This document shows, piece after piece, positions 2,995 through 63,332 of a DNA stretch of 64,000 nt. A program made the translations under genes and the position numbers. The notes below the pieces were generated by a model. The model saw only the letters and a program-made list of their open reading frames with translations. It made no database searches and was not told where the DNA came from. Within the stretch, counting starts at the first letter, position 1, and the number at the start of each line of letters is the position of its first letter. Source of the DNA: the human T2T-CHM13v2.0 reference genome, Homo sapiens; NCBI RefSeq assembly GCF_009914755.1, contig NC_060945.1. One strand, given 5' to 3'.

Positions 2995-3510
2995 TTATAT
3001 TAGTAATCTACTGCTGTATTAAAAACTACCTTAAGAGGTAGTAGTTTAAAACAACAAGCATTTATTATCTCAAAGTTTTTGACGGTCAGGAATTTTGGAG
3101 TGGCTTAGGTAGGTGGCTCTGACTCAAAGTGTTTCATGAAGTGCAGTCAAAATGCTGGCAGGAGCTGCAGTTATCCAAAGGCTTGATTGGGGCTGGAGAA
3201 TGCATTGCTCATATAGGAGCCCTCAATTTATTGCTGGTTTCTGGCTGGAGTTCTCATTTCCTCATCAGATGCTCCTCTTTGTAACGATTCTCAGGCAAGG
3301 GAAGCTAGCATCATTCAGACAGAGTAATCCAAGAGAGAAAGCAAACAGGAAACCACAGAATCTTTTATTGCCTAGTATCTCATGTTGCTTCCTCCCCCAC
3401 CTATTCATTAACAGTAAGTCACTCAGTCTAGCCACACTCAAGAAGAGGAGAATAGGTTACAGCTTTTCAAGAGGGTTTCAAAGAATTTGTGAACAGATTT
3501 TAAACTACCC
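2995..3510 (-). mobile_element. MLT1-type MaLR LTR (older F/G/H-like)
   Basis: Contains tttaaaacaacaagcatttattatctca...gtcaggaattttggagtggcttag...ggcttgattggggctggag and is homologous to the element at 46.7 kb. Confidence 0.8.
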
Positions 3511-45977: not shown

Positions 45978-46663
45978 TAGTGCAAGTCCAACTTGGACTT
46001 GCTTTTCCATGAATATGTTGGAATTAGAGCATCTATGTTTGACCAGCATAACTATGCACAGGGGAGCAACAAGATAACAAAGATCCTGGATCTTCTTACC
46101 CTGCGGATCCACAATAGCCCTTGGCCATACACCTCTGGATTTTTACACAGAAAAGATGCAAACTTCTACCTCAATGAAGCCATTGTTTTTCTTCTCTCAT
46201 AGCAAACTTAATCCTAAGTAATGTATATTTATTGGGTGACTATTATTTGCTCAACAGATAAGGAAAGAGAACTTCTGAGGAACTAAATGACATACCCAAG
46301 ATCACGCAACCAGCAAGTGGTAGGAATAAATGCACGCCTGTGGGGTTTGAAAGCCCACACTATTTGAACTACAAAATCCAGAATTTCAGGGTCCCACTTA
46401 TGCTTCTACAACAGCCCTTTTACATCTAGGCGTGGGGGGAATATTTCCTTAAGCAATAGTCTTTGGCTTCAGAAAATCTGAGCGTCGTCATATACTTTCA
46501 CAATGGAATGAGAGAAGAGCCAGCCAAAGGTATTTCAGAAGCAGAGAGAGCACTTTGCAGATCTAAGGTCTACCAAGGCTATCTCAGCTTAGCCATTCTT
46601 CAGGTCTAACGCGATGTACTAGGTTAGGCAGAAGTCACAGGCCGAAGTCCAGAGAAAACAAGA

Positions 46664-47115
46664 TGCATCAGTCACTGTGTAACTATTTATTGCTGTGTAA
46701 CAAATTTCTCCATAAACATTTATTATCTCACAGTTTTGGTGGATCAGGCATTCAGAAGCAGCTCACGTGGGTGGCTGGTGGCTCAGGGTCTCTCATGAGG
46801 TTTCAGTTAAGATGTTGACCAAGACTGAGGTTACACGAAGGCTTGACTGGGGCTGGAGAATTGGCTTTTGACAGGAGGCTTCATTTCCTCATCCCATACA
46901 CTTCTCTGTAGGGCTGCAAGTCTTCATGACATGGCAGTCTCTTCCCCCAGAATAAGTGATGCAAAGAGAAGGCCACGCTGCCTTCTATGACCCAGTCCCA
47001 GAAGTCACACACTGTCACATCTGCTATATTCTATTCATTAAAAGCAGATCATTGGGTCCAACCTATACAAAAAGGGTGGGGAAATTAAGCTCCACTCTTG
47101 AAAAGAGGAAAATCA
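46664..47115 (-). mobile_element. MLT1-type MaLR LTR hosting the putative ERG alternative last exon
   Basis: ttgctgtgtaacaaat..catttattatctcacagttt..ggatcagg ... ggcttgactggggctggag ... cagaagtcacacactgtcac. Confidence 0.85.
47049..47062 (-). CDS. ERG: Coding part of a putative ERG alternative terminal exon, (G)-W-T-Q-stop, with UTR to ~46670
   Basis: Minus strand reads gcttaatttccccaccctttttgtatAG|GT TGG ACC CAA TGA when read in the same phase as the canonical ETS exon. AATAAA at 46719-46724 and 46686-46691. Consistent with my recollection of a short ERG isoform ending WTQ (unverified). Confidence 0.7.
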
Positions 47116-47924
47116 TAGGCGACCCATATTAGAACAAGACAGAATTCTGCACAGACATTCATCAACAATAACTAACCAACAGAGGGCATTTGGCAGAGGA
47201 AGCAAACCTTCTGTGGAATAACGAAACCTACGGTACAGAGAGTGAACTCTCAGCCACCTCCCAGGAGGACATGAAACATCCTCTGCAGAGAACAATTAGA
47301 GTGCAGCACATTTCACAACATTGCTGAACACTGCTCCAACAGGGGCATGCTCCTGGTGGAAGCAAAACTGGGGCTCAGCTTCCATCCTAGGCCTCTGGAC
47401 CCGTGATGGGAAGGGTTCTTTTTCCATATTATTTAAAAAATAACTAAAGTCAAAGGGACATTGTATATACAGAACAGTGTTTGAAATGAACATGTATAAC
47501 CAATAAAGAAAACACTACCACAAAGAGAATTAGAACATTGCCAGGCTCTTAAAAGATCTGATTCTCCCTTCTTAACCCCATCCCTCTTCTTCCCGTTGAG
47601 AGGTAATCACTATCTTGGCTTTGGAATAATCATTCCCTTGCTTTTCCTCGTTTTTTTGTTTGTTTGTTTTGTTTTTTTCACTACCATTGCATGACGCCTA
47701 AATAATATATTATCTTTCTCTGCTTTCAAAATGTAAATAAATGGAACCATATCATATATGTTGTCCTGCTACATGCCCCTTTGGTGCGACAGTGAGTTTG
47801 TTAAGTTTCATTAATTGCTGTATAAACTCCATTATGTGGATATACCTGCATTGGCTAATCCAATCTAATGTTGATGGATTCTTGGTTGATGAATGCTCAT
47901 GAAAAAATTTCTTTTTTCTATATG

Positions 47925-62811: not shown

Positions 62812-63332
62812 TTAGTAGTAAGTGCCCAGATGAGAAGGCATATGGCTGGTGGGGAGCCTAGTGTTGGGGTATATACCCCCAGTTGGTGAATTCCAGTATG
62901 GGTTTGGGGCAGCAAAAAAACTGGAAGATGTCACGGGGAGGGCTGGAGGGTGGGGCGCCACAAAGTTCATCTTCTGTGGGTGGGCGTGATAGGAGCCCAT
63001 GTACGGGAGGTCTGAGGGGTACTTGTACAGAGATGACTCCGGGGGGTGGGGCTGGAGGGCCTGGGCGATCCCGTGGAAGTCGAACTTGTAGGCGTAGCGC
63101 TTCCCATGGACCTTGGTCATGATGTTCTTGTCATAGTAGTAACGGAGGGCGCGGCTGAGCTTATCGTAGTTCATGTTGGGTTTGCTCTTCCGCTCTCCCC
63201 AGCGCCGGGCCACCTCGTCGGGATCCGTCATCTTGAACTCCCCGTTGGTGCCTTCCCAGGTGATGCAGCTGGAGTTGGAGCTGTCCGACAGGAGCTCCAG
63301 GAGGAACTGCCAAAGCTGGATCTGGCCACTGC
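62812..63332 (-). CDS. ERG: ERG terminal coding exon (ETS DNA-binding domain and C-terminal region); upstream exons lie outside the window
   Basis: Translation [85 protein letters not shown]...[11 protein letters not shown] is the ERG C-terminus. Minus-strand acceptor is ttttccttcctctcctgacctcattAG|GCAGTGGC (AG at 63334-63333). Stop TAA at 62814-62812. Length 521 nt = 2 + 173 codons (phase 1). Confidence 0.98.

What the first reader, a model, noticed from the sequence alone, without database searches (positions are those of the whole stretch)
46670..47090. MLT1 LTR exonised as an alternative last exon giving an ETS-less ERG
Seen in sequence (minus strand): branch-like CTTAAT about 23 nt upstream, pyrimidine tract ttccccaccctttttgtat, AG at 47064-47063, then GT TGG ACC CAA TGA, and two AATAAA (46719-46724, 46686-46691), all inside one LTR. 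The canonical exon is phase 1 (G|GC AGT), so the same donor would give ...G-W-T-Q-stop. Established: the ETS domain is encoded entirely by the canonical last exon. Inference: skipping that exon and its polyA sites yields a protein that cannot bind DNA, on an mRNA that should escape NMD and lacks the canonical miRNA-bearing UTR. It could act as a modulator or dominant negative, including in TMPRSS2-ERG tumours. I recall a short annotated ERG isoform ending this way, so the exon may be known; its LTR origin is the point to check.
Basis: partly seen in the sequence, partly recalled or inferred. Interest (0 to 1): 0.8.

Follow-up and report, generated by a model that had tools for sequence, protein, structure and literature searches.

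The report
Known LTR-derived ERG exon 12
This is the already published and annotated rare last exon ("exon 12") of the human ERG gene, which gives an ERG protein without its DNA-binding domain; it lies wholly inside an ancient retrotransposon LTR, and published tests found the protein inactive.

Summary
On the minus strand, AG 47064-47063 precedes GT TGG ACC CAA TGA. AATAAA lies at 46724-46719 and 46691-46686. The stretch equals the RefSeq alternative exon 46675-47062. Joined to the penultimate exon it reads ...L-A-N-P-G-W-T-Q-stop. The Ets domain lies entirely in the skipped exon.

It is not new. The primer "ERG-ex12pA-R" of Zammarchi 2013 (PMC3589450) matches 46989-47008 exactly, so this is their "exon 12 / 12-pA". 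They found it used about 50-fold less than the main poly(A) site. [quoted passage not shown] It is not ERG8.

The LTR origin holds. Window 47141-46676 is one 466-nt solo copy of a dispersed repeat with at least 607-1170 candidate copies. The family has TGT...ACA ends, target-site duplications in some copies and its own AATAAA. The name MLT1 could not be tested because no repeat library was available.

Three details are new. The AG is specific to this copy: 14 of 18 other copies have GG. The second AATAAA is also specific (0 of 15), as is a ~23-nt deletion. The U-rich element downstream of the cleavage site lies outside the LTR.

This is a low-interest, ordinary case of a transposable element providing a terminal exon.

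The parts
46676..47141 (-). Solo LTR-like repeat copy, 466 nt, in the same sense as ERG. It begins TGTCTTG... and ends ...TTACACA.
   Evidence: All 34 other genomic copies align only within 47118-46684; coverage is 0 at >=47120 and <=46680. MAFFT with 9 long copies places the family's 5' end (TGTGGTGG...) at window 47141 and its 3' end (...CTAATACA) at 46676. The flanks are unique in the genome.
47084..47089 (-). Branch-point-like CTTAAT, with candidate branch A at 47085.
   Evidence: Among 15 aligned copies, CCTAAT occurs in 4 and CTTAAT in 3. Branch-point use is inferred, not shown.
47065..47083 (-). Polypyrimidine tract, 16 of 19 pyrimidines.
   Evidence: In 13 of 15 aligned copies the tract is interrupted by GA 5-8 nt before the acceptor position, and in one more by AG; this copy has TTTTTGTAT there.
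47063..47064 (-). AG splice acceptor of exon 12.
   Evidence: it agrees with the RefSeq exon start 47062 (hub table). Of 18 aligned copies, 14 have GG, 2 GA and 2 AG. The AG is therefore a change of this copy.
46675..47062 (-). ERG alternative last exon, 388 nt. It is the RefSeq exon and the 'exon 12' of Zammarchi 2013.
   Evidence: Hub annotation. Primer ERG-ex12pA-R matches 46989-47008 exactly and once only.
47049..47062 (-). Coding part: (G)GT TGG ACC CAA TGA, giving G-W-T-Q-stop. The stop is at 47051-47049.
   Evidence: TGA is at the aligned place in 15 of 21 copies.
46719..46724 (-). AATAAA no. 1, the repeat family's own hexamer. It ends 43 nt before the annotated 3' end.
   Evidence: AATAAA is at the aligned place in 15 of 21 copies.
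46686..46691 (-). AATAAA no. 2, ending 10 nt before the annotated 3' end. It is probably the signal used.
   Evidence: None of 15 3'-complete copies has AATAAA here; they have AATAGA, AATTGA, AATGGA and others. L023, outside that set, has it. Its use is inferred from spacing only.
46651..46663 (-). U-rich stretch TCTTGTTTTCTCT, 12-24 nt beyond the annotated cleavage site and outside the LTR. It is a candidate downstream element.
   Evidence: Its function is inferred from the general architecture of poly(A) sites.
62812..63332 (-). Coding part of the canonical last exon (exon 11), which is skipped in this isoform. It holds the whole Ets domain.
   Evidence: PF00178, E 1.4e-36, profile positions 1-80 of 81.

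Best explanation
Window 46675-47062 (minus strand) is the known, rarely used alternative terminal exon of ERG: RefSeq's alternative exon and 'exon 12 / 12-pA' of Zammarchi et al. 2013.

Mechanism. A sense-oriented solo LTR of an old, abundant LTR-retrotransposon family sits 12.4 kb beyond the normal end of the gene. The family is most likely MaLR/MLT1, but that name is recalled and was not tested. When the exon-10 donor (window 70402) skips the exon-11 acceptor, and transcription runs past the exon-11 poly(A) sites, the donor can pair with the AG at 47064-47063 inside the LTR.

Four residues (G-W-T-Q) and an LTR-borne TGA close the frame. The RNA is cleaved at the very end of the LTR (46675). 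The most probable signal is the second AATAAA, helped by a U-rich stretch in the unique flank.

The exon became usable through changes particular to this copy: a G-to-A change that made the AG, loss of purines in the pyrimidine tract, a G-to-A change that made the second AATAAA, and a ~23-nt deletion.

The product keeps the N-terminal part of ERG and lacks the Ets and transactivation regions. By published tests it is a minor isoform that behaves as a null. It is therefore most likely tolerated splicing and termination leakage, not a regulator.

Shown: the sequence features, the reading frame, the repeat membership and boundaries, the copy-specific changes, and identity with the published exon.
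Inferred: which hexamer is used, the branch point, and the lack of function in vivo.
For: Identity with the published exon:
- Primer ERG-ex12pA-R, from section 17 of PMC3589450, matches 46989-47008 exactly and once.

Reading frame:
- Exon 10 ends ...AAT CCA G|gtgaga and exon 12 then reads GT TGG ACC CAA TGA.
- The Ets domain lies wholly in exon 11.

Repeat membership:
- The 421-nt query gave 607 first-look candidates in the same genome. All 40 scored matched at 67-85% identity.
- The 5' part gave 78 candidates.
- A full copy used as query gave 1170 candidates. Four non-self copies aligned over 1-556 or 1-558 of 558 nt.
- All 34 fetched copies align only within 47118-46684.
- Nine of 10 5'-complete copies start TGTG, with unrelated DNA upstream. 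The 3' ends read ...CTAATAC(A), with unrelated DNA downstream and no A-tail.
- Target-site duplication: TCTTAT on both sides of L014, and TTGAC/GTGAC at L002.
- The window's flanks are unique in the genome, so the copy is solo.
- Median K2P distance to 16 long copies is 0.34, so the family is old.

Copy-specific changes:
- Acceptor position: GG in 14, GA in 2, AG in 2 of 18 copies.
- AATAAA no. 2: 0 of 15 copies. The ~23-nt gap is seen against all 15.
- Inherited features: TGA in 15 of 21 and AATAAA no. 1 in 15 of 21 copies.

Usage and function (PMC3589450):
- 12-pA has dCt 16.6 against 10.8 for 11L-pA, about 50-fold lower (section 7).
[quoted passage not shown] S3 legend).

General precedent:
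- MaLR is the top LTR family at human poly(A) sites, with 292 sites, and MLT1C is the top subfamily (PMC2553571 passages).
- Old MLT1 elements are spliced only at cryptic sites (PMC1794541 passages).
Against: - No RNA data were available here, so junction use, the exact cleavage site and tissue pattern rest on RefSeq and one paper.
- The family name MLT1 rests on recall. No repeat library could be searched, and Rfam gave only sub-threshold chance-level hits.
- No full-length element (two LTRs with an internal part) was found among the copies examined. The one candidate pair on C5 proved to be a local rearranged duplication. No shared sequence abuts the LTR ends in 10 upstream and 16 downstream flanks. 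The 'LTR' nature therefore rests on termini, duplications and the poly(A) signal.
- This copy's own flanks (AATTC and GTGAC) show no target-site duplication.
- Only 1 perfect and 1 four-of-five duplication were seen among about 7 copies with both ends.
- The authors of the 'null' result say that 'further experiments would be required'. It came from HeLa reporter and migration assays with a TMPRSS2-ERG construct.
- The structurally similar ERG8 is reported as inhibitory by others (PMC4716293 abstract and passages).
Confidence: 0.85

Rival explanations
1. The exon-12 isoform is a regulated modulator or dominant negative. It keeps the dimerisation determinants, titrates full-length ERG or its partners, and matters in TMPRSS2-ERG tumours.
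For: - The isoform keeps everything upstream of the Ets domain.
- Its mRNA should escape NMD and carries a short, different 3' UTR (coordinates).
- The protein is robustly expressed from cDNA (PMC3589450 section 10 passage).
- The analogous ETS-less ERG8 binds active ERG isoforms. Its knock-down raised ERG reporter activity in endothelial cells (PMC4716293 abstract and passages).
Against: - Direct test: TE:12pA did not inhibit full-length T1:E4 on the VE-cadherin reporter and did not alter migration. The authors rule out a dominant-negative role under their conditions.
- RNA is about 50-fold below the main site in normal tissues. It is 7b-pA that the paper reports as induced in fusion-positive tumours; 12-pA is not reported as induced.
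- The splice and poly(A) signals arose by point changes in a decaying repeat. No test of conservation could be run here.
Confidence: 0.1
2. The poly(A) site is the LTR's own, driven by the inherited AATAAA no. 1 (46724-46719). The second hexamer would then be incidental.
For: - AATAAA no. 1 is the family's conserved hexamer, present in 15 of 21 copies.
- PMC2553571 states that LTR-associated gene poly(A) sites are generally the elements' own sites.
- The ~23-nt deletion brings this hexamer nearer to the LTR end.
Against: The annotated end (46675) lies 43 nt after hexamer no. 1 ends, outside the usual 10-30 nt. It lies only 10 nt after hexamer no. 2 ends (hub table). The stretch just downstream of hexamer no. 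1 in other copies is the part deleted here.
Confidence: 0.2
3. The repeat is some other kind of interspersed element and not an LTR, so 'LTR exonisation' is a misnomer.
For: No paired LTRs with an internal region, and no primer-binding or polypurine tract, were demonstrated. No repeat library was available.
Against: - It is a discrete unit of 466-558 nt with sharp common ends, TGT...ACA. It has no A-tail and no long terminal inverted repeat.
- It has 5-6-bp target duplications where preserved, and an AATAAA about 65 nt before the 3' end.
- These are the marks of a solo LTR.
Confidence: 0.03

Closest known systems
ERG 'exon 12 / 12-pA' isoforms (ERG-12pA, TE:12pA) of Zammarchi, Boutsalis & Cartegni 2013, PLoS One (PMC3589450). 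Probably the 'ERG7' of the older Owczarek 2004 nomenclature.
   Same: It is the same object. Their exon-12 reverse primer lies at 46989-47008. They describe it as a poly(A) site that gives C-terminally truncated ERG lacking the Ets and transactivation domains.
   Different: The paper's main text never mentions a repeat: 0 occurrences of LTR, repeat or transpos. The LTR origin and the copy-specific AG, AATAAA and deletion are added here. The ERG7 equation is my inference. PMC5404112 names ERG7 and ERG8 as the two ETS-less variants, and ERG8 is 7b-pA. I did not read Owczarek 2004.
ERG8 (7b-pA isoform, UniProt P11308-6).
   Same: It is also an ETS-less, TAD-less ERG made by an alternative 3' end. 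It was also proposed as an inhibitor of full-length ERG (PMC4716293; PMC8102805).
   Different: - It has a different 3' end, an intronic poly(A) site after exon 7b.
- It has a longer unique C-terminus with a nuclear export signal (L297, L302).
- Its siRNA target is absent from this window.
- Its RNA is strongly induced in fusion-positive tumours, which the paper does not report for 12-pA.
- The endogenous ERG8 protein was not detected in VCaP cells.
LTR-borne poly(A) sites and cryptic splice sites adopted by human genes (MaLR/MLT1; Lee, Ji & Tian 2008, PMC2553571; van de Lagemaat et al. 2006, PMC1794541).
   Same: It is a sense-oriented old LTR supplying a terminal exon, a cryptic acceptor and a poly(A) signal. 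MaLR is the commonest LTR family at gene poly(A) sites, and old MLT1 copies splice at cryptic sites only.
   Different: Here the hexamer most likely used is a new one made by mutation, cleavage falls at the LTR's last base, and the U-rich downstream element comes from the flank. It is therefore a hybrid site and not simply the element's own. I saw only passages of these papers. Their supplementary lists, which might name ERG, could not be opened.

Membership tests
Solo LTR of an LTR retrotransposon (ERVL-MaLR, MLT1 group) | A discrete unit with common sharp ends, TG...CA, forming a short inverted repeat. | tested here: met
   Nine of 10 5'-complete copies start TGTG. The 3' ends read ...CTAATAC(A). 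Flanks are unrelated. Four further copies align over 1-556 or 1-558 of the 558-nt copy. The window copy runs TGTCTTG...TTACACA, 47141-46676.
Solo LTR of an LTR retrotransposon (ERVL-MaLR, MLT1 group) | Short (4-6 bp) target-site duplication. | tested here: inconclusive
   Perfect at L014 (TCTTAT on both sides) and 4 of 5 at L002 (TTGAC/GTGAC). None was seen in the other about 5 copies with both ends. None is seen at the window copy (AATTC against GTGAC). Decay is expected at this divergence.
Solo LTR of an LTR retrotransposon (ERVL-MaLR, MLT1 group) | Own AATAAA near the 3' end, on the sense strand. | tested here: met
   AATAAA at the aligned place in 15 of 21 copies, about 65 nt before the 3' end in undeleted copies.
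Solo LTR of an LTR retrotransposon (ERVL-MaLR, MLT1 group) | Very many dispersed, old copies (literature: MLT1 160,000 copies, over 100 My; PMC1794541 Table 1). | tested here: met
   607, 78 and 1170 first-look candidates, which are lower bounds with only 40 scored each. Median K2P is 0.34 to 16 long copies. Halved, and at an assumed 1.5-2.2e-9 substitutions per site per year, that is roughly 80-110 My. This is a rough figure and mixing of subfamilies inflates it.
Solo LTR of an LTR retrotransposon (ERVL-MaLR, MLT1 group) | Copies that flank an internal region as paired LTRs. | tested here: inconclusive
   None was found. The C5 pair is a rearranged local duplication. No shared sequence abuts the ends of 10 upstream and 16 downstream flanks. 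Only 34 loci were examined.
Solo LTR of an LTR retrotransposon (ERVL-MaLR, MLT1 group) | Significant match to a Repbase/Dfam MLT1 model, which is what gives the name and subfamily. | not testable with these tools
No repeat library was available. Rfam gave 4 sub-threshold hits only. A text search for a 16-nt motif found 0 papers.
Alternative last exon of ERG (exon 12 / 12-pA) | Annotated or published exon at these coordinates, spliced from the penultimate exon in frame. | tested here: met
   RefSeq exon 46675-47062 (hub table). The published primer maps inside it. The frame was checked across exon 10. Junction reads themselves were not available.
ERG8 (7b-pA) | Unique C-terminus with a nuclear export signal; siERG8 target sequence. 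| tested here: not met
   The siRNA target is absent from the window, even with 1 mismatch allowed. The C-terminus here is only G-W-T-Q. ERG8 ends in intron 7b.
Dominant-negative ETS-less isoform | Inhibits full-length ERG activity. | not testable with these tools
   The published test was negative for TE:12pA (PMC3589450 section 10 passage and Fig. S3 legend).

The most novel reading that the evidence does not exclude
An inert solo LTR more than 12 kb beyond ERG became a working terminal exon only through a few changes of this one copy: G-to-A making the AG, G-to-A making the second AATAAA, and a ~23-nt deletion. If these changes are confined to primates or apes, ERG-12pA would be a lineage-specific ETS-less ERG. 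Its use might be regulated, for instance by read-through of the exon-11 poly(A) sites. It might act through the retained N-terminal interaction domains in endothelium or blood cells, a setting the published HeLa and migration assays did not probe.
Probability: 0.08. Interest if true: 0.45.

Novelty: already known. Interest (0 to 1): 0.15.

Why it matters
It matters little beyond housekeeping. The exon, its ETS-less product and a negative test of the dominant-negative idea have been in print since 2013, and the exon is in RefSeq. Terminal exons and poly(A) sites taken from old LTRs are a well-documented class.

The work here adds an anatomy. The whole exon, its acceptor, stop codon and hexamers are LTR sequence. 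The acceptor and the likely poly(A) hexamer were created by point changes in this copy.

I found no paper linking ERG exon 12 to a repeat. Searches found 0 papers, one search found 1 irrelevant paper, and one search found 0 mentions in the exon-12 paper. The link would nonetheless be visible in any RepeatMasker track.

It offers a tidy worked example of how a decaying LTR turns into a last exon. It also shows that the region is not flagged in NCBI's soft-masking list although it is a repeat.

Tried and rejected
- ERG8 identity: rejected.
- Naming the repeat by tools. Rfam at E<=10 over 46500-47300 gave 4 chance-level hits, the best at 15.1 bits against a cut-off of 75. A text search of papers for a 16-nt conserved motif gave 0. 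The 1993 MaLR paper was not held under the id I recalled.
- Finding a full-length element to prove LTR status. The two same-strand hits on C5, 4.7 kb apart, turned out to share a 101-nt 100% identical piece and an 87-nt 91% piece in rearranged order, so they are not 5' and 3' LTRs. Flank-to-flank comparison found only other interspersed repeats at varying offsets and orientations. The list held no pair either.
- A partner LTR in the window. The only other family member lies at about 2998-3357, some 43 kb away.
- Splice-site scoring (MaxEnt, SpliceAI), cross-species alignment, RNA-seq and 3'-end data have no tool here and were not attempted.
- One translation call used the wrong frame and was repeated correctly.

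Full report
**Observation**

One search shows every feature on the minus strand at the stated places:
- CTTAAT at 47089-47084.
- The tract ttccccaccctttttgtat at 47083-47065, with 16 of 19 pyrimidines.
- AG at 47064-47063, the first AG after the branch-like site.
- GT TGG ACC CAA TGA from 47062.
- AATAAA at 46724-46719 and at 46691-46686.

One search translates 47060-47046 as W-T-Q-stop. The canonical last exon begins at 63332 and reads G|GC AGT GGC CAG ATC.

To check the frame I located the penultimate exon with a published primer and read it. It is a 48-nt exon at window positions 70449-70402, outside the window. It ends ...GCA AAT CCA G followed by gtgaga. Joined to 47062, the protein ends ...L-A-N-P-G-W-T-Q.

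Pfam places Ets-domain profile positions 1-80 of 81 in residues 5-83 of the last exon's 172-aa translation. Skipping that exon therefore removes the whole DNA-binding domain.

The hub's RefSeq table lists an exon of other ERG transcripts at exactly 46675-47062.

**What it is in the literature**

ERG8, the best-known ETS-less isoform, is a different thing.
- It ends at a poly(A) site after exon 7b (PMC8102805 passages).
- It has a longer unique C-terminus with an export signal (PMC4716293 abstract and passages).
- Its siRNA target is not in the window.

Zammarchi, Boutsalis and Cartegni 2013 (PMC3589450; I read sections 5, 7 and 17, and passages of sections 10 and 28) describe three principal poly(A) sites: 7b-pA, 11L-pA and "exon 12 (12-pA)". 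Their primer ERG-ex12pA-R matches window 46989-47008 exactly and once only. Their exon 12 is therefore this exon.

They report the following:
- 12-pA is used about 50-fold less than 11L-pA in normal tissues, dCt 16.6 against 10.8.
- In fusion-positive tumours it is 7b-pA that they report as rising.
- TE:12pA protein is robustly expressed but does not change migration.
- It does not drive VE-cadherin or MMP1 reporters.
[quoted passage not shown] The Fig. S3 legend adds that further experiments would be needed.

A review names ERG7 and ERG8 as the two ETS-less variants (PMC5404112 passage). Exon 12 is thus probably ERG7, but this is my inference.

**The repeat**

Searches of the window's own assembly gave these results:

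| Query | First-look candidates | Outcome |
|---|---|---|
| 421-nt finding | 607 | all 40 scored matched, 67-85% identity |
| 5' part, 46860-47130 | 78 | 40 scored |
| Upstream, 47040-47420 | 2 | itself plus one 35-nt match |
| Downstream, 46400-46730 | 1 | itself only |

With sensitive blastn, all 34 fetched copies aligned, and only within 47118-46684. Coverage was 0 at positions >=47120 and <=46680.

A MAFFT alignment with 9 long copies and a 3'-end alignment with 15 copies place the family's ends at window 47141 (TGT...) and 46676 (...ACA). That gives a 466-nt copy.

One copy (L014, 558 nt) is flanked by TCTTAT on both sides. Another (L002) has TTGAC and GTGAC. Used as a query, the L014 copy gave 1170 candidates. 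Four non-self copies aligned over 1-556 or 1-558 of its 558 nt.

Nine of 10 5'-complete copies start TGTG, with unrelated DNA upstream. The 3' ends read ...CTAATAC(A) with unrelated DNA downstream and no A-tail.

These are the marks of a solo LTR: sharp TGT...ACA ends, short target duplications, an AATAAA near the 3' end, and no tail. The median K2P distance to 16 long copies is 0.34, so the family is old. My rough estimate is of the order of 100 My, in line with ">100" for MLT1 in PMC1794541 Table 1.

The copy is in the same sense as ERG and is solo. The only other member in the window lies at about 2998-3357.

I could not show paired LTRs around an internal part. I could not test the name MLT1, since there was no repeat library and Rfam gave nothing. 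The name rests on recall.

**How the exon arose**

Other copies were counted at the sites that matter:

| Site | What the other copies carry | Reading |
|---|---|---|
| Acceptor dinucleotide | GG in 14, GA in 2, AG in 2 of 18 | the AG is a change of this copy |
| Pyrimidine tract | GA interrupts it 5-8 nt before the acceptor in 13 of 15, AG in one more; this copy has TTTTTGTAT | the tract improved in this copy |
| TGA stop | present in 15 of 21 | inherited |
| First AATAAA | present in 15 of 21 | inherited |
| Second AATAAA | present in 0 of 15 3'-complete copies (AATAGA, AATTGA, AATGGA and others) | a change of this copy |

One copy outside the 15-copy set, L023, has AATAAA at the second position. 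This copy also lacks about 23 nt that all 15 others have between the two hexamers.

The annotated 3' end (46675) is one base beyond the LTR's last base. It lies 10 nt after the second hexamer ends and 43 nt after the first ends. I therefore infer that the new hexamer is the one used.

A U-rich stretch at 46663-46651, in unique flank, is the likely downstream element.

**Mechanism**

The exon-10 donor must skip the exon-11 acceptor, which lies 7,069 nt away. Transcription must also pass the exon-11 poly(A) sites and run 12,387 nt further. The donor can then pair with the LTR acceptor, across an intron of 23,339 nt.

This competition fits the low usage reported. The stop lies in the last exon, so NMD should not apply (standard rule). 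The 3' UTR is 374 nt of LTR sequence, in place of 3,362 nt.

**Comparison and novelty**

The exon and its product are known and annotated, and the dominant-negative idea has been tested with a negative result.

LTR-derived terminal exons are a known class:
- MaLR is the leading LTR family at human gene poly(A) sites, with 292 sites, and MLT1C is the top subfamily (PMC2553571 passages).
- Old MLT1 copies are spliced at cryptic sites only (PMC1794541 passages).

I found no paper tying ERG exon 12 to a repeat:

| Search | Result |
|---|---|
| MLT1 + ERG + exonization | 0 papers |
| MLT1 + TMPRSS2 + ERG | 0 papers |
| ERG + MaLR + alternative last exon | 1 irrelevant paper |
| LTR, repeat or transpos in the main text of PMC3589450 | 0 occurrences |

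Supplementary tables that might list it could not be opened.

The added value here is the anatomy and the copy-specific changes. It is not a new kind of element.

**Verdict**

The feature is already known and of low interest.

Noticed in passing
window 2998-3357 (minus strand): A second, partial member of the same LTR family, 67-73% identical to the exon-12 copy and to L014. It lies about 43 kb away in the same orientation and is not a partner LTR.
   Followed up: partly
window 46676-47141: This 466-nt repeat copy is absent from the hub's list of stretches soft-masked in NCBI's file, although it has hundreds of relatives in the genome. The masking list therefore misses old repeats.
   Followed up: yes
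L042 (G000:C5:33079001-33088000): Two pieces of this LTR family 4.7 kb apart share a 101-nt stretch at 100% identity and an 87-nt stretch at 91%, in rearranged order. This looks like a recent local duplication involving an old LTR, not a 5'/3' LTR pair.
   Followed up: partly
window 47380-47414: A 35-nt stretch upstream of the LTR matches G000:C3:164365379-164365413 at 97% (L010). It is the only other match of that flank in the genome, and its meaning is unknown.
   Followed up: no
window 46942-46995 (minus strand): A weak Rfam hit to RFPL3-AS1_2 (13 bits against a cut-off of 40, E 1.3). It is probably chance, or that lncRNA region may derive from a related LTR.
   Followed up: no
L043 1497-1544 (window positions 70402-70449, outside the window): The 48-nt penultimate ERG exon, with donor CCAG|gtgaga and acceptor ctgtag|AT. 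It was used to verify the reading frame.
   Followed up: yes
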